Assembly (NCBI RefSeq): GCF_945869175.1
Contig: NZ_CAMBNZ010000003.1
Coordinates: forward strand, 2,545 to 66,544
Direction: 5' to 3'
DNA: 64,000 bases
DNA from: Limnohabitans sp. Rim8
GTDB taxonomy: Bacteria; Pseudomonadota; Gammaproteobacteria; Burkholderiales; Burkholderiaceae_C
Both the position numbers and the translations under genes were made by a program. The notes below the pieces were generated by a model. The model made no database searches. It was not told the DNA's origin and worked only from the letters and a program-made list of their open reading frames with translations. Shown here in pieces: positions 6,209-61,756 of the stretch. How positions within the stretch are numbered: position 1 is the first letter of the stretch; each line of letters starts with the position of its first letter.

Positions 6209-8137
6209 TCAAGCTGCAGTGGTCGCCGGTTCAGTTTGCACCGCAGGGGTTCCGCCACCGCTGCCGCCACCCGAGGGGGGCGTACGAGGCGTCCAATCCT
6301 TGGGAGGCATAGGATCACGCCCTGCCATGATGTCGTCAATTTGGTCCTTGTCGATGGTTTCCCATTCGAGCAAAGCTTTGGCCATGGCGTGCATCTGAGC
6401 GCTGTGCTCTTCGATCAGATGGCGTGCCAGTTTGTATTGCTCGTCGATGATTCGGCGCACTTCCATGTCCACTTTTTGCATGGTGGATTCACTCATGTTG
6501 GTGGTCTTGGTGACCGAACGGCCTAAAAAGACTTCGCCTTCGTTCTCGGCGTAGACCATCGGCCCCAGTGCATCGGTCATGCCATAGCGCATCACCATGT
6601 CACGGGCAATGGAGGTGGCGCGTTCAAAATCATTGCTGGCACCGGTGGTCATCTGGTGCATGAACACCTCTTCAGCGATGCGGCCACCAAAAAGCATGCT
6701 GATTTGGTTCAACATGAACTCTTTGTCAAAGCTGTATCGGTCTTGCTCGGGCAAGCTCATGGTGACACCCAAAGCGCGGCCACGGGGAATGATGGTGACT
6801 TTGTGCACAGGGTCGCACTTGGGCAGCAATTTGCCGATCAAGGCATGGCCCGCTTCGTGGTAAGCCGTGTTGCGGCGCTCATGCTCAGGCATGACCATGC
6901 TCTTGCGCTCAGGGCCCATCAAGATTTTGTCCTTGGCCTTTTCAAAGTCCACCATCTCGACCACGCGGGCGTTCCGGCGCGCTGCCATCAAAGCCGCTTC
7001 GTTACAAAGGTTAGCCAAATCGGCACCACTCATGCCCGGTGTGCCGCGGGCGATGATGCCCGCATTGACGTCTTGGCCAATCGGCACCTTGCGCATGTGC
7101 ACGTTCAAGATTTGTTCGCGTCCGCGGATATCGGGCAAGGTCACATAGACCTGACGATCGAAGCGTCCTGGACGCAGCAAAGCAGCATCCAAAATGTCGG
7201 GGCGGTTGGTGGCGGCCACCACGATCACACCTAAATTGGTCTCAAAACCATCCATCTCGACCAGCATCTGGTTCAGCGTTTGCTCGCGTTCGTCGTTGCC
7301 ACCGCCCAAGCCGGCACCACGTTGACGGCCGACCGCGTCGATCTCGTCAATGAAAATGATGCAAGGCGCATTCTTCTTGGCGTTCTCAAACATGTCTCGA
7401 ACACGCGCCGCGCCCACACCGACGAACATTTCAACAAAATCAGAACCGGAGATGCTGAAAAACGGCACCTTGGCTTCACCGGCGATGCCTTTGGCGAGCA
7501 AGGTCTTGCCGGTACCGGGAGGGCCCACCAGCAACAAGCCACGTGGAATACGGCCGCCCAGCTTCTGGAATTTTTGAGGATCTTTCAGAAAATCAACCAC
7601 TTCCTTGACTTCTTCTTTGGCCTCGTCACAACCCGCCACGTCCGCAAAAGTCACCTGGTTGTTGTTTTCATCCAGCATGCGCGCCTTGGACTTGCCAAAA
7701 CTGAAAGCGCCACCTTTGCCGCCGCCTTGCATCTGTCGCATGAAATAAACCCAGACGCCAATCAGCAGCAGCATGGGCCCCCAGCTGACAAGCAAAGTCA
7801 TGAGCAGAGAACCTTCTTCTCTGGGTTTCACATCGAATTTGACGCCGCTGTTGATCAGATCCCCCACCAAACCTCGGTCCAGGTAAGTGGCCGTGGTTTT
7901 GATACGGCGGTCATCGTTGGTGATGGCCAAAATCTCGGTGCCACCAGGGCTTTCGGAAATGGTGGCGCTCTTGATGCGGTTACCGCGAACCTCTTCGAGG
8001 AAATCTGAATACCCAATGGCATTCGCACCTGCGACACCACGGTTGTCAAATTGCTTGAACAAGGTGAACAGCACCATGGCAATCACCATCCAAACAGCAA
8101 TTTTGGAAAACCAAGGGTTGTTCAAGAGAGGCTCCAA
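6209..8137 (-). CDS. ftsH: ATP-dependent zinc metalloprotease FtsH
   Basis: 642 aa. It has two N-terminal TM segments, Walker [13 protein letters not shown], the SRH region and the zinc motif HEAGHAL. Confidence 0.97.
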
Positions 8138-17207: not shown

Positions 17208-18308
17208 TCACGCGGTCAACGCCTGGCGAATCACACCACACACCTCGTCAATCGACTCGTTGCTCAACTCGGGGTAGATTGGCAGGGACAGGCAGTGCTC
17301 GGCCACCGATTCGGTGACAGGAAAACGGGTACCGTCTGCGATTGAGGCAAACACTTTTTGCTGGTGCAAAGGCACGGGATAATAAACAGCGCTGGCGATT
17401 TTGTGCTCAGTCAAAGCCTGTTGAATGGCCGCACGGTGATCGGTCAACACGGTGTACTGGTGGAACACATGCAAGCCCACGCCATCTTCGCAGGGCGTTT
17501 GCAAATTCAGGAAACACAAGCCAGCGTTGTAGCGGTGAGCAACGCGGCGACGCTCTTGGTTGTAATGGTCAATCAACGGCAGCTTGGCCCGCAGCACCAC
17601 GGCCTGCAGTTCATCAAGTCGGCTGTTGTAACCCACGATGTCGTGGTAATAACGCACCTTGCTGCCGTGGTTGCGCAGCATGCGCAGGGTTTCCGCCATG
17701 TCGTCAGACTGCGTTGTGATCATGCCGCCGTCGCCAAAGCAGCCCAAATTTTTACTGGGGAAAAAGCTGAAAGCCGCCACATCGCCAAGCGCTCCGGTTT
17801 TGCGGCCACCGATGTCGGCACCAAAAGATTGAGCGCAGTCCTCCACCAATTGAAGCTGGTGCTCTTTGGCCAAGGCCATCAACGGCGCCAAATTGGCGGG
17901 CTGTCCAAACAAATGCACTGGCAGCAAAGCCTTGGTTTGGGGGGTGATGGCGCGCTGGGCCTGCGCCACGTCGATGTTGAAGGTGCAGGGATCGATGTCC
18001 ACAAAAACCGCTTTGGCACCCACATAGGCAATGGCCTCGGCAGTGGCAATGAAGGTGAAAGGCGTGGTGATCACTTCGTCGCCAGGCCCAATGCCGGCAG
18101 CCAGCAAAGCCAAGTGCAAAGCATCGGTGCCGTTGGCGCAAGTGATGGCGTGGGCCACGCCCAGATAGTCGGCCGCCTCTTTCTCAAAGGCTTGAACATT
18201 GGGGCCCAAAATAAACTGCGCTGCAGACAAGGCCTTCAAAAATGCAGGCTCCAGCTCAGGCTGGAGATCGCGGTATTGCGCGACCAGATCGACCATAGGG
18301 ATGGGCAT
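17208..18308 (-). CDS. DegT/DnrJ/EryC1/StrS-family PLP aminotransferase (GnnB-like, candidate UDP-3-keto-GlcNAc transaminase)
   Basis: 366 aa. It has GTDALHLAL, DEVITTPFTFIAT and the PLP-lysine block FSFFPSKNLGCFGDGG. It sits between lpxA and lpxB. Confidence 0.85.
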   Translation of the reverse strand: MPIPMVDLVAQYRDLQPELEPAFLKALSAAQFILGPNVQAFEKEAADYLGVAHAITCANGTDALHLALLAAGIGPGDEVITTPFTFIATAEAIAYVGAKAVFVDIDPCTFNIDVAQAQRAITPQTKALLPVHLFGQPANLAPLMALAKEHQLQLVEDCAQSFGADIGGRKTGALGDVAAFSFFPSKNLGCFGDGGMITTQSDDMAETLRMLRNHGSKVRYYHDIVGYNSRLDELQAVVLRAKLPLIDHYNQERRRVAHRYNAGLCFLNLQTPCEDGVGLHVFHQYTVLTDHRAAIQQALTEHKIASAVYYPVPLHQQKVFASIADGTRFPVTESVAEHCLSLPIYPELSNESIDEVCGVIRQALTA

Positions 18309-18334
18309 GGCGTACCTTTCAATTGTGCAAAAAA

Positions 18335-19276
18335 TCAGGAAATCAAACGGGTGGCGTCGGTGATGCGTTGAACAGCTTGCAAGGCACGCCGTCCAGCCTC
18401 ACCACTCACTTTGGGGGGACGTTGATGTCGAACGCTCTCCACAAAGTCAAAAATCTCGGCAAACAAGGGATCGGCTTCGCCAAAGGATTGCTCATGGCGC
18501 TCAATCGCCTGCTCAGGATCGGCCAAAGGCGATGTGGCGCCTCGGTAAGTGGTCAAGGTGCGCGCCTGAAAATCCAGAGAGTGGCAGGCTTGGTCTTGAA
18601 AGACCCGCATTTTGCGCTCGCTCTTGGCGCTCACCCGACTGGCGGTGACATTGGCCACGCAGCCATTGGCAAACCGAATCCGTGCATTGGCAATGTCGAT
18701 GTCGGCAGTCAGCACACGCGCACCCGAACACTCCACGCTTTCCACCTCGCTGTTGACCAAAGACAAAATCAAATCGACATCGTGGATCATCAAGTCCAGC
18801 AACACACTGACGTCGGTGGCCCGTGGTTTGAAAGGGGCCAAGCGGGAACTGTCGATGAAACGGGGGTTCGACAGCAAGGGCTCTAAGGCCAAAGCGGCAG
18901 GGTTGAAACGCTCTAAATGACCGACGGCCAACACGCAATGGTTTTCTTTGGCCAGTCGGATCAACTCATCGGCCTGCTCCAAGGTGGTGGTCATGGGTTT
19001 TTCCACCAAGACATGCACACCAGCCCGCAAAAAATCGGCGCACACCTCGTGATGCCCTTGCGTGGGCACCACAATACTCACCGCATCCACCTGCCCGATC
19101 AAAGACCGGTAATCGGTGAGGGCAGCACAGTGCAGCGGGCCAGCGACAGCATCAGCTTGTTCCTGACGGCTGTCCACCACGGCCACCAACTGACACGCTG
19201 GAATTTTGGCGTACTTTTGAGCATGAAACTTGCCCAGATAACCAACGCCAATCACGGCGCAACGCAACAGGGCCAA
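18335..19276 (-). CDS. Gfo/Idh/MocA-family NAD-dependent oxidoreductase (GnnA-like, candidate UDP-GlcNAc 3-dehydrogenase)
   Basis: 313 aa. It has the Rossmann N-terminus CAVIGVGYLGKFHA and the EKP motif VLVEKPM. It lies directly downstream of lpxA. Confidence 0.85.
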   Translation of the reverse strand: MALLRCAVIGVGYLGKFHAQKYAKIPACQLVAVVDSRQEQADAVAGPLHCAALTDYRSLIGQVDAVSIVVPTQGHHEVCADFLRAGVHVLVEKPMTTTLEQADELIRLAKENHCVLAVGHLERFNPAALALEPLLSNPRFIDSSRLAPFKPRATDVSVLLDLMIHDVDLILSLVNSEVESVECSGARVLTADIDIANARIRFANGCVANVTASRVSAKSERKMRVFQDQACHSLDFQARTLTTYRGATSPLADPEQAIERHEQSFGEADPLFAEIFDFVESVRHQRPPKVSGEAGRRALQAVQRITDATRLIS

Positions 19277-54716: not shown

Positions 54717-55625
54717 ATGCACGACTCAAGGCAAGCGGTTCATTGGCCCATGCGCGATGGCGTGAGTGCCAGTGTCGTATCGGTGCCGCAAGGCGCACCC
54801 CACTTGCTCGATTTCTTGGCCCAACGCATGCCGGGCATCTCACGCAGCGAATGGGCCGAGCGCTTGGCGCAAGGCCTGGTGCTGCATGAAAACGGGCAAA
54901 CTGCCCTGCCCGACCAAGCCTGCCAACCCGGCCAACGCCTGTATTACTACCGCCATCTGGCCAACGAACCGGTCTTGCCGTTTCAGGTGCAGATCCTGTT
55001 TGAAGACGCGCACTTGCTGGTGGCCGACAAGCCGCATTTCATGCCGGTCACCCCTTCAGGGCGCTACGTGCAACAAAGCCTGCTGGTGCAGCTCAAACGC
55101 CGGACCGGCTTGAGCAATCTGGTGCCCTTGCACCGCATTGACCGGGAAACGGCCGGCTTGGTGCTGTTGGGCAAACGCCTGCAAGACCGCGATGCCTACC
55201 ATGCGCTTTTTCGGGACCACCACATCCACAAGCTTTACCATGCCGTCGCACCTTGGCGGGCTGACCGGGCTGTGCCCACGGTCTACGCCAGCCGTTTGGT
55301 GCCGGGGGATCCGTTTTTCAGAACACAAGAGGTGCCGGGTACACCCAACAGTGAAACCCGCATCAGCCTGTTGCGCACCTCCGGTCTGCGGGCCTTGTAC
55401 CAACTCGAACCCGTCACCGGCAAGCGCCACCAACTGCGGGTGCACATGAACGCCTTGGATTTGCCCATCGAGGGCGACCAGTTCTACCCCACCGTCTTGC
55501 GTGGCCCCGACGCCCCCGAAGACTTCGGCCAGCCCTTGCAACTGCTGGCCCAGTCGGTGCGTTTTACCGACCCGATCACAGGTCAAGCCCACGCGTTTGA
55601 AAGCCAGCGCCAGCTGGCGCTGTGA
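54717..55625 (+). CDS. RluA-family pseudouridine synthase
   Basis: The ORF is trimmed to the ATG at 54717. It has the catalytic motif LVPLHRIDRETAGLVLL and, later, TGKRHQLRVHM. Confidence 0.85.
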   Translation: MHDSRQAVHWPMRDGVSASVVSVPQGAPHLLDFLAQRMPGISRSEWAERLAQGLVLHENGQTALPDQACQPGQRLYYYRHLANEPVLPFQVQILFEDAHLLVADKPHFMPVTPSGRYVQQSLLVQLKRRTGLSNLVPLHRIDRETAGLVLLGKRLQDRDAYHALFRDHHIHKLYHAVAPWRADRAVPTVYASRLVPGDPFFRTQEVPGTPNSETRISLLRTSGLRALYQLEPVTGKRHQLRVHMNALDLPIEGDQFYPTVLRGPDAPEDFGQPLQLLAQSVRFTDPITGQAHAFESQRQLAL

Positions 55626-56324
55626 TCAGCCCGTGGTGGGCAAACGCTTCAGACCCCACCAGCGCCAACGCAACCAAACCGCCTGAATGACAAGGCTGCT
55701 GCCCCAAATCGCCAAAAACGCAAAGACGATGTCACTCAAAAAATGGCCCCCTTGGACAATACGCACCCAGCCAATGGCGCTGCCCAAAACAAGACCCGTC
55801 AAAAGCCAGCGCCTGCGTCCACCAGGAGCGGCCCACATGCCAAAAGCCAATGCACAAAACCCCAAGGCGGCATGACCGCTGACAAAAGAGCAATTGCGCT
55901 CACACGCTTGACTGACCTGGAACGCCGGCACAAAGGCCGCCGCGCCACCCATCTCCTGCACCTGGTTGGGCCGTGGACGGCCCACCTGGTTTTTCAGGGC
56001 CTCATGCACCAACAAGCCATTGCCCAAAAAAGCCACCAAAATCCAGGCCAAACACCTGCGAGACAAACCCCGCGAGATGCGTTCAGGCCGCAGCCAACGC
56101 AGGACCAGCACCAGCAGCGTCCATGCGGTCAACACCCACCCCAGGCGTGGGGCCCACACATAAACCGCCTGAACCGACACCCATTGTTTGGCCGGAAACT
56201 GGCCCGCCGAATCATAAAAACGCAAAGCGACCCACAAATCCAGTTCTGGCCACCCCAGAAAAATGCCGCATGCCAGCACAAAACAAGCGCCCCACATGAC
56301 ACCCCAACGGTGGCGCGACTTCAT
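55626..56324 (-). CDS. PAP2-family lipid phosphatase (LpxE/LpxF/PgpB-like), distal gene of the remodelling operon
   Basis: 232 aa membrane protein with all three acid-phosphatase motifs: KNQVGRPRP, SFVSGHAA and VRIVQGGHFLSD. An ATGA overlap links it to the upstream ArnT-like gene. Confidence 0.85.
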   Translation of the reverse strand: MKSRHRWGVMWGACFVLACGIFLGWPELDLWVALRFYDSAGQFPAKQWVSVQAVYVWAPRLGWVLTAWTLLVLVLRWLRPERISRGLSRRCLAWILVAFLGNGLLVHEALKNQVGRPRPNQVQEMGGAAAFVPAFQVSQACERNCSFVSGHAALGFCALAFGMWAAPGGRRRWLLTGLVLGSAIGWVRIVQGGHFLSDIVFAFLAIWGSSLVIQAVWLRWRWWGLKRLPTTG

Positions 56325-57937
56325 GGCTTGGCGACCTCAACGGGGCGGCGCAGCACCGTCATGCCCTGCACCGTCGCCAAGGTTTCCCAATGGGCAAATT
56401 CAGCGGCGCGTTTGACAGGCACGAGCACCATATCTGCCCGTTCGAGCTGTTTCACCATGGCCTCTTGCCTGTAAAAAGCGAATGAGGGCCAATTGCCGCC
56501 CACCTGCGCCACGGTCCCTGTCCATGCGCGTGCCGCCAAGCCCAATGTTTTGACCGGGCCTTGCAAATGGTTGGACCACCAGGGCCAGATGAACAGCGTC
56601 ATCACCAGGGCATGCACCAAAGCCATGACCGACAACACCCCCACAGCGCCCAACCGTTGGCGGGCCCGGGGCCACCACAGCCAAGCGGCCACAGCACAGG
56701 CCCAGGCCATGCCCACTGGCCACAGCTGCGCGGTGTACAGCGCCAAAGGCTCACTCCAAGCCCAACCCACTGGGAGGCCCTGCGTTTGATGGAGCCAAAC
56801 CATGGGCAAAACCAGCATGAGGGCTTGCCACAACACCAGCATGACCCCGCACAGCAGGCCCTGCCAGGACCGCCAATGCGCCAGTCCGGCCACCAGCAAA
56901 ACGACCATCCCTGGCGCTGCATAAATGCCATAGTGCGGCAGCTTGGTGCTCGACAGGCTGAAAAAAACCAGCACAAATGCCACCCAAATCAAGGCGCGCC
57001 TGACCACGACATCGCGCCAGAGCAAGCCCACACGCCGCCACCAAACCAGCAGCAAAGGCGTCCAAGGCAGCCAAAGCAAAGGGGCCACCAGCACAAAATA
57101 AAACCAGCCCCCCGCGTGCCCCTCCATGGGTGCGGCAAAGCGGTCAATGTTGTGCCGCAAGATGAACCCTTCCACAAAGCCCTGGCCGTGACGCCACAAA
57201 GCGTAGGCGTACCAAGGCACAGCGATGGCCAGCAAAATGGCCCACGCCTTCACATCCAACAAGGCCTGTCTCAGCAGACGCCACTGGCCCTCTGTCAAGC
57301 AGGCCAACAGGAACACCGCCCCGGGAATCAACACGGCCACGGGCCCCTTGACCAGCAGTCCCAACCCCACCCAGGCGGCCAATCGGCGCAATGAGGACAG
57401 GTCGCCACGCGCCATGTAACGCCAAAGATCCAGCGCACTGAGCATCAAAAACAGGCCCAAAAGGGCATCGGCAGTGGCGGCGTGGGCCATGGCCCAACTG
57501 CCAAAACTGGTGACATGGACCACGGCAGCCAGCGCCGCCGCACGCCAACCCCAACGGGGCGCCACAAAACCGCTCACCGCCAAAGCAGCCGCCCAAGTGG
57601 CCAAAGCCGAGGGCAAGCGCATCGCAAACTCATTGACGCCAAAGACCAAGGCACCCAGCGCTTGCAACCAATAAACGCCAATGGGCTTGTCGAAGCGGTC
57701 CGCACCATTGAGGGTGGTGTGCCCCCAATCACCCGAGACCAGCATTTCTCGTGTGGCCTCTGAAAAAGCACCCTCGTCCACATCAAACAAAGGCGCTTGC
57801 CCCAATCCCAAGAGCAAGAACGCCAGCAAGCCCAAAGCCAATCCCCACATCCAGGTGGGTGGGCGCTCAGGCCACTGCCGCCTGGCGGGATGCCCTGACA
57901 CCTCAGGGTTTGACATGCCAGGCCTCTGCATCGTCAA
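56321..57937 (-). CDS. ArnT-like GT-C glycosyltransferase (PMT_2/GT83), polyprenyl-phosphate-sugar dependent
   Basis: 538 aa polytopic protein. DVDEGAFSEATREMLVSGDW...DRFDKPIGVYW parallels E. coli ArnT DETRYAEISREMLASGDW...RYFEKPIAGYW (from memory). The later blocks VKGPVAVL, HNIDRF and STKLPHY also parallel ArnT. The start is uncertain, between 57850 and 57937. Confidence 0.85.
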   Translation of the reverse strand: MTMQRPGMSNPEVSGHPARRQWPERPPTWMWGLALGLLAFLLLGLGQAPLFDVDEGAFSEATREMLVSGDWGHTTLNGADRFDKPIGVYWLQALGALVFGVNEFAMRLPSALATWAAALAVSGFVAPRWGWRAAALAAVVHVTSFGSWAMAHAATADALLGLFLMLSALDLWRYMARGDLSSLRRLAAWVGLGLLVKGPVAVLIPGAVFLLACLTEGQWRLLRQALLDVKAWAILLAIAVPWYAYALWRHGQGFVEGFILRHNIDRFAAPMEGHAGGWFYFVLVAPLLWLPWTPLLLVWWRRVGLLWRDVVVRRALIWVAFVLVFFSLSSTKLPHYGIYAAPGMVVLLVAGLAHWRSWQGLLCGVMLVLWQALMLVLPMVWLHQTQGLPVGWAWSEPLALYTAQLWPVGMAWACAVAAWLWWPRARQRLGAVGVLSVMALVHALVMTLFIWPWWSNHLQGPVKTLGLAARAWTGTVAQVGGNWPSFAFYRQEAMVKQLERADMVLVPVKRAAEFAHWETLATVQGMTVLRRPVEVAKP

Positions 57938-58928
57938 GCACCTTTTGGGTGGTCGTGTGGTAGGCCATGGACCGACCTCCGTCGAAATAGGTGCGCATCA
58001 ACAACTCCGACAGCACGCCCGTGGTGAGGAACTGCAAACCGGCCACCAAACAGAAAAAACCCACGAACATCAAGGGCCGCGTGCCAATGGATTCGCCCAT
58101 CATTTTGAGCACCGCCATGTAGGCCAGCATCAAGGCCCCTGCGCCCCCGACCAACAAGCCCAGCCCCCCAAAAAAATGGCCCGGCCGCGTGCCAAAGCGC
58201 AAAAAGAAGTGGATGGACAACAAGTCCACCAACACACGCAAGGTGCGGGACAGGCCATATTTTGATTGGCCTTTGGTGCGCGCATAGTGACTGACCGCCA
58301 CCTCGGCCATGCGGTCGGGTGAAGTGACCGTGGCCATCCACGCCGGAATGAAGCGGTGCATCTCGCCATACAAGCGGATTTTGCGCAGCACCTCGGTTCG
58401 AAATGCCTTGAGGCTGCAGCCCAAATCCTGAAACGCCAAACCACTGACGCTTCGAATCAGGTGGTTGGCCATGCGCGAGGGCAGTTTGCGCAAAAAGAAG
58501 CCGTCCTGCCGGTTTTGTCGCCACCCTGCCACCAAGTCCAGGTCTTCTTCAAGCAGCTTGCGCACCAGCAAAGGAATGTCTTTCGGGTCGTTTTGCAGGT
58601 CACCGTCCATGGTGACGATCACATCGCCCCGAGCCGCGTCAATGCCCGCCTGCATGGCAGCAGTCTGCCGAAAGTTGCGCAACAAACGCACAACGCGGAT
58701 GTGGGGCCCGACTTCAAGCGCTCGCTCTTTCAGAAATTGCCAGGTCAGGTCACGGCTGCCGTCATCCACCACCACCAACTCCCAAGGATGGGGGTACTCG
58801 GCCAAAGCGTTGTTCACCGCATCGATCAGATCGCGGGCCAGCTCCTCTTCGTTGTACATGGGCACCACCACCGACAAGCGGTGCGCAGGCATGGGTAGGG
58901 TGAAAAGATCTTTTGGTTTTTCTTGCAT
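57903..58928 (-). CDS. ArnC/GtrB/DPM1-like GT2 polyprenyl-phosphate glycosyltransferase
   Basis: 341 aa. It has LSVVVPMYNEE, VVVDDGSRD, TMDGDLQNDP and RQNRQD, plus two C-terminal TM helices. It is collinear with ArnC as I remember it. Confidence 0.85.
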   Translation of the reverse strand: MQEKPKDLFTLPMPAHRLSVVVPMYNEEELARDLIDAVNNALAEYPHPWELVVVDDGSRDLTWQFLKERALEVGPHIRVVRLLRNFRQTAAMQAGIDAARGDVIVTMDGDLQNDPKDIPLLVRKLLEEDLDLVAGWRQNRQDGFFLRKLPSRMANHLIRSVSGLAFQDLGCSLKAFRTEVLRKIRLYGEMHRFIPAWMATVTSPDRMAEVAVSHYARTKGQSKYGLSRTLRVLVDLLSIHFFLRFGTRPGHFFGGLGLLVGGAGALMLAYMAVLKMMGESIGTRPLMFVGFFCLVAGLQFLTTGVLSELLMRTYFDGGRSMAYHTTTQKVLDDAEAWHVKP

Positions 58929-58939
58929 ACATCACCCTT

Positions 58940-59872
58940 TTATTTTGAAATTGTCCTTGCGCTCGACAAAGCACCCAGGCCCCAAACGCCGGCCAAGCCC
59001 AAGGAGATCGCCAGACAAAATGCGTGGACCCCCAAAGCGACCAGCCCCAGCATAGGTGCAGCGGCCACAGGCAAGCCGGAAAACAGCCAAACACCGGCTT
59101 CGTAAGTGCCCAAACCCGCGGGCCCTTGCACCGGCAGCATAGCGGCCAACTCACCGCCCAGGGCCCCGGCCCATGCCTGTGCAAAGTCCAAGGACGCATT
59201 CTCTGGGGCCAGGCTGTGCAAAAGCCCAGCCACCGCCAGCAGTTTGAGGAGCCAGTTGCCCCAACTCAAGAGCCATCCCGACAAGCCACTGCGCCGGTGC
59301 ATCAATGAGCGGACAAAGACCATGCCCTTGATGCGGCGCTTCAACAGCCAAAGCCACAGACGGGCGGGCGCGGTCAACAAGCCGACCCACAACAGGGCCA
59401 TGAGCACTCGCCAAGCCACTGGAACACCAGGCCACAGCCAGAGAGCCAAGGTGGCCAAGACCATCACATCTTGCAAACGCAACCAGACCAAACTGCGCCA
59501 AGACGCTTGCCAACTGGCCCCAAACACCTGTTTGACCAGCATGGGGTAGCCCAGCTCACCCGCACGCATGGGCAAAAGCAGGACCGCCGCATTGTGAAAA
59601 AGGATCACCCGCATGGCTTCTCGCCAAAGCACCCAGCGTTTCCATTGCCATTCTCGCCTCAAGCGTTCGGCACGCAAGGCCAAACTCCCCGACCACAACA
59701 GCCCCGCCATCAGCCAACCCCACACAGGAACGGTTGACCAGACTGCCTTCAAGGCTTGGGGGTCGACACTTTGCCAAGCCCACGCTAGCAAAGACAGGGC
59801 CAACACACTGCCCAACACAAAGGCCGTCAGTTTCAGTGGGTTCACCCGGCGCACCTTGACCGTTTCAGTCAT
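58940..59872 (-). CDS. UPF0104 / lysyl-PG-synthase-TM-domain family membrane protein (MprF flippase-domain-like)
   Basis: The ORF is trimmed to the ATG at 59872, giving 310 aa with about 8 TM segments. It carries the family-typical PMRAGELG (PxRxGE) and GPAGLGTYEAG (PGGLG-like) motifs. Confidence 0.7.
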   Translation of the reverse strand: MTETVKVRRVNPLKLTAFVLGSVLALSLLAWAWQSVDPQALKAVWSTVPVWGWLMAGLLWSGSLALRAERLRREWQWKRWVLWREAMRVILFHNAAVLLLPMRAGELGYPMLVKQVFGASWQASWRSLVWLRLQDVMVLATLALWLWPGVPVAWRVLMALLWVGLLTAPARLWLWLLKRRIKGMVFVRSLMHRRSGLSGWLLSWGNWLLKLLAVAGLLHSLAPENASLDFAQAWAGALGGELAAMLPVQGPAGLGTYEAGVWLFSGLPVAAAPMLGLVALGVHAFCLAISLGLAGVWGLGALSSARTISK

Positions 59873-60740
59873 GCCTGCCGCCTGCGCCCTGGCGAAGCTG
59901 GCGCTGGACGCGAACAAGCCCAAGCAGCGACCAAACAGCCGCCGCACAGACCAGCAGGCGAGCACCCGTCATGCCCCAACCTTCCGAGGGCAAATGCCAA
60001 ACCGCGTAAAGCAAGAGCAGCATCAAGACGGACAACAGCCTCTGTGCACGCGCCGATGTCAAATGCGCCGCCCATGGCTGCATTCGCTCCCACCATTGCG
60101 CGAGCAACACCAAGAACAAGCCCAAACCCAGCCCCACCAGCACGTCCGCCGGCCAGTGGGCGCCGACCGCCAAACGCGACACCGCAACCAGACTGCCCAA
60201 CAGCACCAACGTCATGCGCCAGACAACACGTTCACGGCCTGCTGCAAAAAAGAGCAAAGCGGCCAGGGAGCCGGCCGCCAGTGAGTGGCCTGAAGGCATG
60301 GAGTGTCCCCCCATGGGGGGGTGTCCAATGGCGTGCAGCCAATGGGGCTCCAACACCGACAAGGGACGTGGGGCATCCCAAGCCGCCTTGAGCAAAGGCG
60401 AGGCGATCACGCCCATCAACCATGTTTTGAGGGCCCAGGCCAATGGGACAGGGTGCAGGAGGAACAAGGCCAGCAGGAGCAGCAATGCTTGCGCAGAATC
60501 GCCCCATTGCGTCACAAACAACCAAAACTGGTCGGGCAACCAACTGCTGCGATGCCCCCAAATCAACCACTCTTGGTTCCAAGGGGAGCCGTGAAGAACC
60601 AGCCCCCCCACCACCAACAGACAAGCCAAGGACACGCTGATCCAGGAGGTTTTTAGGGTCGGGACACCCCCTGAAATGTGCGGTTCTGGCATAACCATCT
60701 TATTTTGCCACCATAATTTGGCGTCCAAAGAAACACACAT
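59865..60740 (-). CDS. PAP2-family lipid phosphatase, first gene of the remodelling operon
   Basis: It has the motifs LKAAWDAPRP, MPSGHS and SRLAVGAHWPAD. The start may be the ATG at 60698 or at 60692 rather than 60740. Confidence 0.85.
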   Translation of the reverse strand: MCVSLDAKLWWQNKMVMPEPHISGGVPTLKTSWISVSLACLLVVGGLVLHGSPWNQEWLIWGHRSSWLPDQFWLFVTQWGDSAQALLLLLALFLLHPVPLAWALKTWLMGVIASPLLKAAWDAPRPLSVLEPHWLHAIGHPPMGGHSMPSGHSLAAGSLAALLFFAAGRERVVWRMTLVLLGSLVAVSRLAVGAHWPADVLVGLGLGLFLVLLAQWWERMQPWAAHLTSARAQRLLSVLMLLLLYAVWHLPSEGWGMTGARLLVCAAAVWSLLGLVRVQRQLRQGAGGRHD

Positions 60741-60742
60741 TC

Positions 60743-61756
60743 ATGACCATTCAAATCGCCGTCACCGGTGCCGCAGGATTCATCGGTTCGAGCTTGGCCC
60801 TCCATCTGGCCCAAATGGGACACGGGGTGCACGCCTGCGATTGGTCTGACCGCTCGGGGCGAACCCCGCTCGACACCCCAGCCGACAGCACTCTGGCCAG
60901 ACTGCGGGCCGAGCGCTTGGGCATTTTGGCGCAAACGCCTGGCGTTCACCTGTCGCAATTGGATTTGGCAGCGCCTGGTGCGTTTTCGGCATGGGTCAGC
61001 GAGCGGCAGCCCGACGTGGTCATTCATTTGGCGGCGCAAGCAGGTGTGCGCCACTCCATGCAAGCCCCGCTGGACTTTGTGGGGCCCAACCTGATCGGGT
61101 TTGCCCATGTGCTGGACGCCTGCCACCGGCAGGGGGTCCAGCGCTTGCTGTACGCCAGTTCCTCCAGCGTTTATGGCATGCGCGACACGGCCCCTTTTTT
61201 GGAAGACGACCGCACGGACAGCCCGGAGTCTTTTTATGCCGCCACCAAGCAAGCCAATGAAGCCATGGCCAAGGCCTACCACGCGCAATATGGTTTGCGC
61301 AGTTTGGGCATGCGCTTTTTCACGGTGTACGGCCCACGAGGGCGCCCCGACATGGCCCCCTTTCTCTTTGCGCAAGCCATACGGAGACAAGAAACTCTGA
61401 CCTTGTTTGCCGAGGGCGAACTGCTCCGAGATTTCACTTACGTGGATGACACCGTGGCCGCCATTGCCGCGCTGGCCAGACCCGACGCCCGCTGGGAAGG
61501 TTCCACCGTGGTCAATTTGGGACACCACCGCCCGGTGAGTGTGAACAGTTTTGTGAAATGTCTGGCCGATCAACTGGGCCTTGCGCCCATCATCGCCTAC
61601 GCACCGATGCAAAAAGCCGATGTCAAACTGACCTGCGCGAGTGAAACCCGACTGCTCAGCATGATCGGATCATGGCCTGACACCCCGCTCGACGAGGGCT
61701 TGGGCCGATTTGTGGACTGGCTGCAAGATTGGGACCCGCTGAACCAGCCAGGTTAA
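60743..61756 (+). CDS. NAD-dependent epimerase, UDP-glucuronate 4-epimerase-like (SDR extended family)
   Basis: 337 aa. It has GAAGFIGS, YAATKQANE (YxxxK) and RFFTVYGPRGRPDMAPFLF. The last resembles the RFFTVYGPWGRPDMA block of UDP-GlcA 4-epimerases as I remember it. Confidence 0.75.
   Translation: MTIQIAVTGAAGFIGSSLALHLAQMGHGVHACDWSDRSGRTPLDTPADSTLARLRAERLGILAQTPGVHLSQLDLAAPGAFSAWVSERQPDVVIHLAAQAGVRHSMQAPLDFVGPNLIGFAHVLDACHRQGVQRLLYASSSSVYGMRDTAPFLEDDRTDSPESFYAATKQANEAMAKAYHAQYGLRSLGMRFFTVYGPRGRPDMAPFLFAQAIRRQETLTLFAEGELLRDFTYVDDTVAAIAALARPDARWEGSTVVNLGHHRPVSVNSFVKCLADQLGLAPIIAYAPMQKADVKLTCASETRLLSMIGSWPDTPLDEGLGRFVDWLQDWDPLNQPG

What the first reader, a model, noticed from the sequence alone, without database searches (positions are those of the whole stretch)
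55626..61756. Five-gene coupled operon (PAP2 - UPF0104 - ArnC-like GT2 - ArnT-like GT-C - PAP2) plus a divergent UDP-GlcA-4-epimerase-like gene: candidate lipid A dephosphorylation / uronic-acid decoration system
Seen: the five minus-strand membrane-protein genes are packed with overlaps or tiny gaps. There is an 8-nt overlap at 59865..59872, an 11-bp gap at 58929..58939, an overlap or near-abutment at about 57903..57937, and an ATGA overlap at 56321..56324. The two PAP2 proteins each have the complete KxxxxxxRP / (P)SGH / SRxxxxxHxxxD motif set. The GT2 is collinear with ArnC. The 538-aa protein shares the ArnT N-terminal DE..Y/F.E..REM..SGDW...F.KP...YW block and later blocks. The divergent gene has the RFFTVYGPxGRPDM block typical of UDP-glucuronate 4-epimerases. 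No arnA/arnB/arnD-like genes (L-Ara4N route) and no deacetylase (GlcN/GalN routes of Bordetella or Francisella) are present. Established: in Rhizobium leguminosarum, lipid A and core GalA decoration uses a UDP-GlcA 4-epimerase, an ArnC-like polyprenyl-P-GalA synthase (RgtE) and ArnT-like transferases (RgtA-D). There the PAP2 phosphatases LpxE and LpxF remove the 1- and 4'-phosphates. Aquifex and Caulobacter lipid A combine a GlcN3N backbone with GalA in place of phosphate. Inference: this locus removes one or both lipid A phosphates and installs a hexuronic acid (probably GalA) via a polyprenyl-phosphate carrier. Combined with the GnnA/GnnB pair at 17.2-19.3 kb in the same window, it predicts a phosphate-poor, diamino-sugar lipid A. 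To my knowledge that is undescribed for this kind of betaproteobacterium. The gene set with a UPF0104 member also differs from the Arn, Lgm, Flm and Rgt loci I know.
Basis: partly seen in the sequence, partly recalled or inferred. Interest (0 to 1): 0.72.

Follow-up and report, generated by a model that had tools for sequence, protein, structure and literature searches.

The report
Lipid A phosphate-to-uronic-acid remodelling operon
A freshwater Limnohabitans-like bacterium carries a tightly packed, widely conserved gene cluster that most likely strips phosphate from the lipid A anchor of its outer membrane and attaches a sugar acid instead, a known kind of chemistry not yet described in this bacterial group.

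Summary
Five overlapping or abutting minus-strand genes (PAP2, UPF0104, ArnC-like GT2, ArnT-like GT-C, PAP2) and a divergent SDR epimerase lie at the stated coordinates. All domain and motif claims hold.

The order is conserved in dozens of Comamonadaceae, Burkholderiales and Rhodocyclales genomes, so this is a real functional unit.
- The GT2 matches solved ArnC structures.
- The GT-C model superposes on ArnT (TM 0.80).
- The UPF0104 model matches only the MprF flippase domain.
- One PAP2 is closest to LpxF and the other, weakly, to Aquifex LpxE.
- The epimerase sits with UDP-glucuronate 4-epimerases.

Best reading: an Rgt/LpxE/LpxF-like system that dephosphorylates lipid A and adds galacturonic acid from a polyprenyl-phosphate carrier, with UPF0104 as the carrier flippase. 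Sugar and acceptor are inferred, not shown.

Refinements: sister Limnohabitans genomes carry a second, very divergent GT-C next to the LpxF-like gene, which this window lacks. That suggests one sugar and one bare hydroxyl here. The UPF0104+GT2+GT-C triad was already noted in archaea.

Caution: Sphaerotilus natans lipid A is reported as triphosphorylated.

Verdict: a new variant of a known kind, of moderate interest.

The parts
59865..60698 (-). PAP2-A: first gene of the operon, a 277-aa PAP2 membrane phosphatase. It is the candidate lipid A 1-phosphatase (weakly LpxE-like).
   Evidence: Pfam PAP2 64.6 bits. All three PAP2 motifs are present. The best solved relative is Aquifex aeolicus LpxE 6ebu, E 6.9e-6. 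NCBIfam hits are weak and mixed: SepP, PgpB, LpxE. It forms a two-gene unit with GT-C orthologues in other Burkholderiales.
58940..59872 (-). UPF0104/PplT-family membrane protein, 310 aa. It is the candidate flippase for the polyprenyl-phosphate-sugar made by the GT2.
   Evidence: Pfam PF03706 38.3 bits, cut-off 33.4. The AF2 model has pLDDT 84. Its only confident structural matches are MprF structures, TMq 0.53-0.60, prob 1.00. It co-occurs with the GT2 in 42 of 43 loci.
57903..58928 (-). ArnC-like GT2 polyprenyl-phosphate glycosyltransferase, 341 aa, with two C-terminal TM helices.
   Evidence: Pfam Glycos_transf_2 116.9 bits. NCBIfam ArnC 178 bits, full length but below the 529 cut-off. Matches solved ArnC structures 9bhc and 8vxh at E about 1e-46, then GtrB and DPMS. 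34% identical to E. coli ArnC. TM helices at 256-274 and 292-310.
56321..57916 (-). ArnT-like GT-C glycosyltransferase (GTC1), 531 aa.
   Evidence: Pfam PMT_2. NCBIfam ArnT 99.6 bits, cut-off 567. ArnT 5ezm E 2.5e-23. The AF2 model (pLDDT 84) superposes on ArnT 5f15 with TM 0.80/0.78 and E 9e-18, while the next GT-C reaches only TM 0.55. Family-invariant D45, D47, E48, K77, P78 and R259 align with the ArnT DE...KP...R positions.
55626..56324 (-). PAP2-B: last gene of the operon, a 232-aa PAP2 phosphatase. It is the candidate lipid A 4'-phosphatase (LpxF-like).
   Evidence: Pfam PAP2 67.7 bits. The best NCBIfam model by far is LpxF NF045633 (E 2e-29, 103 bits, residues 14-216 on model positions 13-215 of 217, below the 400 cut-off); the next model scores E 1e-7. 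PAP2 motifs are present. Only 28% identical to PAP2-A over the catalytic core, so it is not a recent duplicate.
60699..60742 (.). 44-bp divergent spacer between the operon and the epimerase gene.
   Evidence: Sequence. The scan found no sigma-70 consensus. The divergent arrangement is conserved, with the epimerase next to the GT2 module in 34 of 43 loci.
60743..61756 (+). SDR epimerase, 337 aa, UDP-glucuronate 4-epimerase-like. It is the presumed supplier of UDP-GalA.
   Evidence: Pfam Epimerase 183 bits. Best solved relatives: 5u4q (224 bits, 42% identity), then MoeE5 6kv9 (147 bits) and BcUGAepi 6zl6 (109 bits). It carries YASSSSVYG, YAATK and RFFTVYGPRGRPDMA. The FTVYGPxGRxDMA block is conserved in all 39 synteny-linked orthologues.
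18335..19276 (-). GnnA-like GFO/IDH/MocA oxidoreductase lying between lpxA and lpxB. It is a separate locus that bears on the same lipid A prediction.
   Evidence: Pfam GFO_IDH_MocA. The best NCBIfam model is UDP-N-acetylglucosamine 3-dehydrogenase, 207 bits against a 450 cut-off. Gene order lpxD-fabZ-lpxA-[this]-DegT-lpxB-rnhB.
17208..18308 (-). GnnB-like DegT-family aminotransferase lying between lpxA and lpxB.
   Evidence: Pfam DegT_DnrJ_EryC1 410 bits. No NCBIfam equivalog cut-off is met. Position in the lpx cluster.

Best explanation
This is a constitutively placed, co-transcribed lipid A remodelling operon of the Rgt/LpxE/LpxF type.

**Proposed pathway**
1. In the cytoplasm, the divergently encoded epimerase makes UDP-galacturonate from UDP-glucuronate.
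2. The ArnC-like GT2 transfers the uronic acid to a polyprenyl (undecaprenyl) phosphate.
3. The UPF0104/MprF-flippase-like protein moves that lipid-linked sugar to the periplasmic leaflet. This is the role ArnE/ArnF play in the Ara4N pathway.
4. On the periplasmic face, PAP2-A removes one lipid A phosphate, most likely the 1-phosphate. The ArnT-like GT-C then glycosylates the freed hydroxyl.
5. The LpxF-like PAP2-B removes the other phosphate, most likely the 4'-phosphate.

The second GT-C that accompanies PAP2-B in sister lineages is absent here, so that position probably stays a free hydroxyl. Together with the GnnA/GnnB-like pair in the lpx cluster, the predicted product is a phosphate-poor, GlcN3N-containing lipid A with one uronic acid.

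**Shown:** gene structure, family and fold of every protein, and conserved linkage.

**Inferred:** sugar identity, the acceptor, which phosphatase serves which position, and flippase activity.
For: - **Operon structure.** Overlaps and an 11-bp gap join the five genes.
- **Conserved order.** Of 52 well-flanked GTDB loci, 24 have EPI, PAP2-A, UPF0104, GT2 and PAP2-B around the GT-C, 12 of them with the second GT-C. GT2 and UPF0104 co-occur in 42 of 43 loci, and EPI accompanies GT2 in 34 of 43.
- **GT2.** It has the ArnC architecture.
- **GT-C.** It has the full ArnT fold, TM 0.80.
- **UPF0104.** Its fold matches only the MprF flippase domain. The family is predicted to flip lipid-linked glycans (PMC5898192; bioRxiv 10.1101/2022.03.11.483950; GpgF in PMC12713373).
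- **PAP2-B.** The LpxF model is its best match by 22 orders of magnitude in E-value.
- **PAP2-A.** Its best solved relative is Aquifex LpxE. It forms a stand-alone pair with GT-C orthologues elsewhere.
- **Second GT-C.** It tracks PAP2-B in 17 of 19 loci.
- **Epimerase.** It groups with UDP-GlcA 4-epimerases and keeps the arginine that binds the UDP-GalA carboxylate in BcUGAepi (PMC12338863).
- **No rival sugar route.** There are no Ara4N genes in the window and no deacetylase family in the neighbourhood.
- **Established precedent.** LpxE and LpxF dephosphorylate, and RgtF and RgtD then add GalA from bactoprenyl-P-GalA made by RgtE. rgtE-lpxE-rgtF are clustered in Oligotropha, Mesorhizobium and Aquifex (PMC7663294, PMC9393093).
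Against: - No biochemical or lipid A structural data exist for any organism carrying this cluster.
- Every NCBIfam equivalog cut-off is missed by a wide margin: ArnT 99.6 against 567, ArnC 178 against 529, LpxF 103 against 400, LpxE 23.8 against 177.
- PAP2-A is as close to undecaprenyl-diphosphate and PGP phosphatases as it is to LpxE.
- The EPI-UPF0104-GT2-GT-C core occurs in some genomes with no PAP2 gene within 7-8 kb. The GT-C therefore does not strictly need an adjacent phosphatase.
- The closest GTDB relative (L004) lacks the UPF0104 gene.
- Sphaerotilus natans lipid A is reported as a triphosphorylated GlcN disaccharide (PMC10179214, citing Masoud 1991), while a Sphaerotilus-labelled MAG (L083) carries a version of the cluster. 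Whether these are the same strain is unverified.
- Orthology to RgtD, RgtF and RgtE could not be tested because no reference sequences were accessible.
- No UDP-glucose dehydrogenase is present in the window.
Confidence: 0.55

Rival explanations
1. Arn/Lgm/Flm-like decoration. The GT-C adds the sugar onto a lipid A phosphate through a phosphodiester-linked glycosyl group rather than replacing the phosphate. At most one PAP2 (the LpxF-like one) trims the other phosphate, as in Francisella. PAP2-A would be an undecaprenyl-diphosphate or PGP phosphatase, or an LpxT-like phosphotransferase.
For: ArnT is the only solved or curated relative of the GT-C. PAP2-A scores as well against SepP and PgpB as against LpxE. 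The core module occurs without PAP2 genes in some genomes. A triphosphorylated lipid A is reported for S. natans (PMC10179214).
Against: PAP2-A and GT-C orthologues occur as a tight two-gene unit, which argues that the phosphatase prepares the acceptor. An anionic uronic acid on a phosphate has no known precedent or obvious benefit (own knowledge). Neither PAP2 resembles E. coli LpxT beyond the catalytic core.
Confidence: 0.15
2. The acceptor is not lipid A. The GT-C would glycosylate the LPS core (as RgtA, RgtB and RgtC add GalA to Kdo or mannose), another periplasmic glycan, or a protein. The PAP2 proteins would serve general lipid-phosphate recycling.
For: ArnT-family enzymes with core acceptors are known (RgtA-C; own knowledge and PMC7663294 background). 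Nothing in the sequence identifies the acceptor. The module sometimes lacks PAP2 neighbours.
Against: Two different PAP2 subfamilies are embedded in the same translationally coupled operon. One is specifically LpxF-like. A second GT-C co-varies with that LpxF-like gene. General Und-PP phosphatases are not needed downstream of a polyprenyl-monophosphate donor (inference).
Confidence: 0.15
3. The pathway is the same but the sugar is different. The GT2 would load glucuronic acid or a neutral or amino hexose. The neighbouring epimerase would mainly feed core, O-antigen or exopolysaccharide synthesis.
For: GT2 donor specificity cannot be read from sequence. The epimerase is absent next to 9 of 43 GT2-containing loci. 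Its best PDB match is deposited under a generic dehydratase name.
Against: The divergent epimerase is linked in 34 of 43 loci and keeps the UDP-GlcA-epimerase signature in all 39 orthologues examined. No other nucleotide-sugar gene is linked.
Confidence: 0.12
4. A GpgSDF-like or Hex-like membrane glycolipid system. The GT2 would glycosylate a phospholipid directly and UPF0104 would flip that glycolipid, unrelated to LPS.
For: UPF0104 proteins accompany glycolipid synthases in P. aeruginosa gpgSDF (PMC12713373).
Against: GpgS is a GT4 enzyme accompanied by a deacetylase. Here the GT2 is ArnC-type and is followed by a GT-C, a class that uses polyprenyl-phosphate sugars. No deacetylase is present.
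Confidence: 0.03

Closest known systems
Rhizobial Rgt/LpxE/LpxF lipid A GalA system (RgtE, RgtD, RgtF, LpxE, LpxF; clustered rgtE-lpxE-rgtF in Oligotropha, Mesorhizobium and Aquifex)
   Same: The enzyme classes and logic are the same: an ArnC-like polyprenyl-P-GalA synthase, ArnT-like transferases, PAP2 1- and 4'-phosphatases, and a UDP-GlcA 4-epimerase source. It likewise co-occurs with GnnA/GnnB and a GlcN3N backbone (PMC7663294, PMC9393093).
   Different: The host is betaproteobacterial. All functions sit in one translationally coupled operon that includes a UPF0104 flippase-like gene; the Rgt descriptions I read (PMC7663294, PMC9393093) do not mention one. This window has only one GT-C for two phosphatases. 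Orthology to the Rgt proteins was not tested.
Arn (PmrHFIJKLM) L-Ara4N pathway of E. coli and Salmonella
   Same: The GT2 is 34% identical to ArnC and the GT-C 28% identical to ArnT with the same fold. The topology of the pathway is the same: cytoplasmic loading, flipping, then periplasmic transfer.
   Different: There is no ArnA, ArnB, ArnD, ArnE or ArnF in the locus. A UPF0104 protein stands where the ArnE/F flippase would be. PAP2 phosphatases are present. The sugar is probably anionic and probably replaces phosphate rather than decorating it.
Francisella Flm/NaxD/LpxF and Bordetella LgmABC systems
   Same: Each has an ArnC-like plus ArnT-like pair acting on lipid A. Francisella combines this with LpxF-mediated 4'-dephosphorylation that leaves a bare hydroxyl, the outcome predicted here for the LpxF-like side (own knowledge; Lgm in PMC4993483).
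   Different: Those systems need a deacetylase to make GalN or GlcN and attach it to phosphate. No deacetylase is present here, and a uronic-acid epimerase is linked instead.
Archaeal UPF0104 (arCOG00899) + AglD-like GT2 + PMT/STT3-like GT-C neighbourhood; MprF flippase domain; GpgF
   Same: The same three-family triad is conserved, with UPF0104 predicted to flip the lipid-linked sugar (PMC5898192). The fold matches the MprF flippase domain.
   Different: Those systems serve protein N-glycosylation or phospholipid translocation. Here the triad is embedded with lipid A-type phosphatases in a Gram-negative bacterium. Flippase activity for a polyprenyl-phosphate sugar has not been shown for any member.

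Membership tests
ArnT family (GT83 GT-C) | N-terminal DE...REM..SGDW...F.KP..YW block and the ArnT fold, including the C-terminal periplasmic domain | tested here: met
   Alignments to ArnT. Foldseek against 5f15 gives TM 0.80/0.78 and E 9e-18.
ArnT family (GT83 GT-C) | NCBIfam equivalog score for lipid IV(A) Ara4N transferase | tested here: not met
   99.6 bits against a cut-off of 567. It is a family relative, not an ArnT equivalog.
ArnC-type polyprenyl-phosphate GT2 | GT-A domain followed by two C-terminal TM helices, with full-length similarity to ArnC, GtrB and DPMS | tested here: met
ArnC-type polyprenyl-phosphate GT2 | NCBIfam ArnC equivalog score (UDP-Ara4FN specificity) | tested here: not met
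   178 bits against a cut-off of 529.
LpxF (lipid A 4'-phosphatase) | PAP2 catalytic motifs and a full-length match to the LpxF model | tested here: met
   Motifs. NF045633 aligns residues 14-216 to model positions 13-215 of 217 at E 2e-29, and the next model scores 1e-7.
LpxF (lipid A 4'-phosphatase) | NCBIfam equivalog cut-off | tested here: not met
   103 bits against a cut-off of 400.
LpxF (lipid A 4'-phosphatase) | 4'-phosphatase activity | not testable with these tools
   The activity needs an assay.
LpxE (lipid A 1-phosphatase) | PAP2 motifs and specific similarity to characterised LpxE | tested here: inconclusive
   The motifs are complete. The best PDB hit is A. aeolicus LpxE at E 6.9e-6. 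NCBIfam LpxE gives 23.8 bits against 177, and SepP and PgpB score higher.
UDP-glucuronate 4-epimerase (SDR) | GxxGxxG, YxxxK, and the SSSSVYG and FTVYGPxGRPDM blocks with the carboxylate-binding arginine; closest relatives are characterised UGA epimerases | tested here: met
   MoeE5 and BcUGAepi are the characterised relatives (PMC7984243, PMC12338863). Activity was not tested.
UPF0104 / PplT (MprF flippase domain) | Pfam PF03706 above the gathering score and an MprF-TM-like fold | tested here: met
   38.3 bits against 33.4. Foldseek top five hits are all MprF, TMq 0.53-0.60.
UPF0104 / PplT (MprF flippase domain) | Translocation of a polyprenyl-phosphate sugar | not testable with these tools
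   This needs a flippase assay or genetics.
Rgt system (RgtD/RgtF/RgtE orthology) | Closer to RgtD, RgtF or RgtE than to ArnT, ArnC, LgmA/B or FlmK in a phylogeny | not tested
GnnA/GnnB (UDP-GlcNAc to UDP-GlcNAc3N) | An oxidoreductase plus aminotransferase pair located between lpxA and lpxB | tested here: met
   The best NCBIfam model for the oxidoreductase is UDP-GlcNAc 3-dehydrogenase, 207 bits against a 450 cut-off, so the equivalog level is not met.

The most novel reading that the evidence does not exclude
The UPF0104 protein is the long-missing dedicated flippase for a polyprenyl-phosphate uronic acid. Abundant freshwater Betaproteobacteria (Limnohabitans and relatives, at least 580 GTDB species with this GT-C subfamily) would then constitutively build a phosphate-free or phosphate-poor GlcN3N lipid A. 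The number of uronic acids (one or two) would switch between close lineages through gain or loss of a second GT-C. This could be a phosphorus-sparing or grazer- and phage-evasion trait in P-limited lakes.
Probability: 0.3. Interest if true: 0.65.

Novelty: new variant of a known kind. Interest (0 to 1): 0.5.

Why it matters
- **Extension of known chemistry.** If correct, GalA-for-phosphate lipid A chemistry, known from Alphaproteobacteria and Aquificae, extends to a large, ecologically dominant group of freshwater Betaproteobacteria.
- **A testable flippase.** It gives the first experimentally tractable case in which a stand-alone UPF0104/PplT protein can be tested as a polyprenyl-phosphate-sugar flippase.
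- **Natural comparisons.** Cultured Limnohabitans strains with and without the second GT-C, and one close relative without UPF0104, offer isogenic-like comparisons.
- **Consequences of phosphate-poor lipid A.** It would alter susceptibility to cationic peptides and polymyxin, TLR4 and Limulus reactivity of environmental endotoxin, and the cellular phosphorus budget.

Tried and rejected
- **Promoter and terminator scan of 55.4-61.9 kb.** It found no sigma-70 consensus, and terminator-like sites were at shuffle level. Uninformative.
- **PDB sequence searches.** PAP2-B and UPF0104 gave no hits. For UPF0104 this was resolved by structure prediction.
- **tblastn of the GT-C against plasmids.** Only distant GT39 hits in Cupriavidus, Acidithiobacillus and Variovorax. 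No rhizobial reference was obtained.
- **LgmD.** I tried to learn whether Bordetella LgmD is a UPF0104 protein. The JBC paper is not held, and PMC4993483 says only that lgmD is dispensable.
- **LpxT-like phosphotransferase reading of the PAP2 proteins.** Pairwise similarity to E. coli LpxT is limited to the catalytic core. Not supported, but not excluded.
- **PAP2/GT-C fusion in L045.** Rejected. The long ORF is a frame artefact, and the PAP2 gene (7018..7902) is separate and abuts the GT-C.
- **GpgSDF-like glycolipid reading.** Rejected, because GpgS belongs to a different GT class, that system needs a deacetylase, and a GT-C is present here.
- **Literature searches.** Searches for a described lipid A of Limnohabitans or related Comamonadaceae, or for GlcN3N or GalA lipid A in Betaproteobacteria, found nothing relevant.

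Full report
**1. Observation**

The junctions check out on the raw sequence:
- ATGACTGA overlap at 59865..59872.
- 11-bp gap at 58929..58939.
- ATGA overlap at 56321..56324.

Three independent metagenome contigs carry identical DNA: ENA ERZ27280275, ENA ERZ28594294 and Logan SRR9061296. Their gene calls give PAP2-A 277 aa, UPF0104 310 aa, GT2 341 aa, GT-C 531 aa (ATG 57916, a 14-nt overlap with the GT2), PAP2-B 232 aa and the divergent epimerase 337 aa.

Pfam confirms every domain. Both PAP2 proteins carry the K-x6-RP, SGH and R-x5-H-x3-D motifs.

The operon is flanked by housekeeping genes:
- On one side an rluA-like gene whose stop codon abuts the PAP2-B stop, then trmB-like and gluQ-like genes.
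- On the other side alaS.

Its G+C content matches its surroundings, so it does not look like a recently acquired island.

**2. Organism and conservation**

The GT-C subfamily is abundant in freshwater Comamonadaceae. The closest GTDB species are a Comamonadaceae MAG (81%) and Limnohabitans sp. Rim8 (83%). A pattern scan of GTDB species representatives found at least 580 stretches encoding relatives.

I ran tblastn with the six window proteins against the 80 loci kept. The order EPI(divergent)/PAP2-A/UPF0104/GT2/GT-C/PAP2-B recurs across Limnohabitans, Polaromonas, Rhodoferax and unnamed Burkholderiales. Partial versions occur in Ramlibacter, Ideonella, Leptothrix, Aquabacterium and Rhodocyclales.

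Among 52 loci with enough flanking DNA:
- GT2 and UPF0104 co-occur in 42 of 43.
- The epimerase accompanies the GT2 in 34 of 43.
- 24 have the full set.

A neighbour-joining tree of the GT-C proteins shows one tight family far from E. coli ArnT, whatever the local gene organisation.

**3. The individual proteins**

- **GT2.** It matches solved ArnC structures over its full length (E about 1e-46), then GtrB and dolichol-P-mannose synthase. It is 34% identical to E. coli ArnC and has the two C-terminal TM helices of polyprenyl-phosphate glycosyltransferases.
- **GT-C.** It hits only ArnT among solved sequences (E 2.5e-23). Its AlphaFold model (pLDDT 84) superposes on ArnT over the whole length (TM 0.80, E 9e-18). 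The next-best GT-C is far behind at TM 0.55. Residues invariant in the family (D45, D47, E48, K77, P78, R259) align with the ArnT DE...KP...R positions. That these residues are functionally important in ArnT is my recollection of the ArnT structure paper, which I did not check here.
- **UPF0104 protein.** It has no sequence-level PDB relative. Its model (pLDDT 84) matches only MprF structures with confidence.
- **PAP2-B.** It is specifically LpxF-like. The NCBIfam LpxF model aligns end to end at E 2e-29, against 1e-7 for the next PAP2 model, though the score is far below the equivalog cut-off.
- **PAP2-A.** It is ambiguous. Its best solved relative is the trifunctional Aquifex LpxE (E 6.9e-6; PMC6581854), but Und-PP and PGP phosphatase models score similarly.
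- **The two PAP2s compared.** They share only 28% identity over the catalytic core.
- **Epimerase.**
  - Its best solved relative is 5u4q (224 bits, 42% identity). That entry is deposited as a dTDP-glucose dehydratase; I believe it is the Klebsiella UDP-GalA epimerase, but that is unverified.
  - Next come the characterised UDP-GlcA 4-epimerases MoeE5 and BcUGAepi.
  - The FTVYGPxGRxDMA block is conserved in all 39 syntenic orthologues. It contains the arginine that holds the UDP-GalA carboxylate in BcUGAepi (PMC12338863).

**4. What the comparative anatomy adds**

- **A second GT-C.** In 19 of 52 loci a second GT-C lies between the first GT-C and PAP2-B (526 aa in L009, Pfam PMT_2, no detectable BLASTP similarity to the first). 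It comes with PAP2-B in 17 of 19 cases. The window has no copy. Within the window's own clade the gene is patchy: L008 lacks it although it is nested among L006, L007 and L014, which have it.
- **A stand-alone PAP2-A/GT-C pair.** In Aquabacterium-type genomes a PAP2-A-like gene and a GT-C orthologue form an abutting two-gene unit between rpoC and rpsL-rpsG-fusA.
- **Suggested pairings.** These patterns suggest two phosphatase/transferase pairs: PAP2-A with GTC1, and PAP2-B with GTC2. That mirrors LpxE/RgtF and LpxF/RgtD in rhizobia (PMC9393093, PMC7663294). In the window, the LpxF-like step would have no transferase to follow it.
- **Core module without phosphatases.** The EPI/UPF0104/GT2/GT-C core also occurs with no PAP2 nearby.
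- **UPF0104 not strictly required in cis.** The nearest relative, L004, lacks UPF0104.

**5. Context in the window**

The lpx cluster at 14-24 kb reads bamA-skp-lpxD-fabZ-lpxA-[GFO/IDH/MocA]-[DegT]-lpxB-rnhB. The oxidoreductase is closest to UDP-GlcNAc 3-dehydrogenase. This is the GnnA/GnnB arrangement, and it supports a GlcN3N-containing backbone.

No ArnA, ArnD, ArnE, ArnF or Ugd homologue exists in the 64 kb. The remainder of the window is housekeeping.

**6. Mechanism and rivals**

The best-supported model is an Rgt/LpxE/LpxF-like pathway:
- UDP-GalA formation.
- Transfer to polyprenyl phosphate.
- Flipping by UPF0104.
- Periplasmic dephosphorylation of lipid A.
- Glycosylation of one freed position.

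I put this at about 0.55. Rivals are sugar added onto phosphate (0.15), a non-lipid-A acceptor (0.15), a different sugar (0.12) and a GpgSDF-like glycolipid (0.03).

The main cautions:
- All curated equivalog cut-offs are missed.
- The core module can lack phosphatases.
- Sphaerotilus natans lipid A is reported as triphosphorylated (PMC10179214), while a Sphaerotilus-labelled MAG carries the module (L083).

**7. Novelty**

The chemistry and the enzyme classes are known. The UPF0104+GT2+GT-C triad and its predicted flippase were described for archaea (PMC5898192), and UPF0104 proteins are widely predicted lipid translocators (bioRxiv 10.1101/2022.03.11.483950; PMC12713373).

What is new:
- The combination in one coupled operon with both lipid A-type phosphatases and a uronic-acid epimerase.
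- Its breadth in Betaproteobacteria.
- The variable second transferase.

I found no publication on it. I rate it a new variant of a known kind, with interest 0.5.

Noticed in passing
window 17208..19276 (-): A DegT aminotransferase and a GFO/IDH/MocA oxidoreductase are inserted between lpxA and lpxB. This is the GnnA/GnnB arrangement and predicts a GlcN3N-containing lipid A backbone. The oxidoreductase's best NCBIfam model is UDP-GlcNAc 3-dehydrogenase.
   Followed up: partly
L009:9479-11059 (also L006, L007, L014-L021, L024, L025, L031, L034, L035 and others): A second GT-C (526 aa in L009, PMT_2) with no BLASTP similarity to the first lies between the GT-C and the LpxF-like PAP2 in 19 of 52 related loci. 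It is absent from the window and patchy even among close Limnohabitans relatives.
   Followed up: yes
L004:6827-6989: The closest GTDB relative (GT-C 81% identical) has only about 160 bp between PAP2-A and the GT2. The UPF0104 gene is missing there.
   Followed up: partly
L045:7018-9461 (also L042, L049, L051, L052, L063, L065): In Aquabacterium-type Burkholderiales a PAP2-A-like gene and a GT-C orthologue form an abutting two-gene unit. In L045 this unit is inserted between rpoC and rpsL-rpsG-fusA, with no GT2, UPF0104 or epimerase nearby. The rpoC and rpsL-rpsG-fusA neighbours were confirmed by Pfam only for L045. For L049 and L065 they are inferred from ORF sizes, and the other loci were not examined.
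   Followed up: partly
L083 (MAG labelled uncultured Sphaerotilus sp.): This MAG carries EPI/UPF0104/GT2/GT-C/GTC2/PAP2-B. A review lists Sphaerotilus natans lipid A as a triphosphorylated GlcN disaccharide (PMC10179214). This is possible counter-evidence, but whether the strains match is unknown.
   Followed up: no
window 55623..55628 and 60699..60742: The stop codons of PAP2-B and the convergent rluA-like gene abut with no spacer or terminator. The divergent spacer to the epimerase is only 44 bp and has no sigma-70 consensus match.
   Followed up: partly
window 56000..60000: There is a strong strand composition bias (AT skew +0.25 to +0.36, GC skew -0.14 to -0.17) over the operon. This is consistent with G+T-rich codons of membrane proteins on the minus strand.
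   Followed up: no
L087:5928-10702: A more distant relative (UPF0104 42% identical) has the minimal module of epimerase(divergent)/UPF0104/GT2/GT-C with no PAP2. It sits next to a pectate-lyase-family gene and the nap nitrate reductase operon.
   Followed up: no
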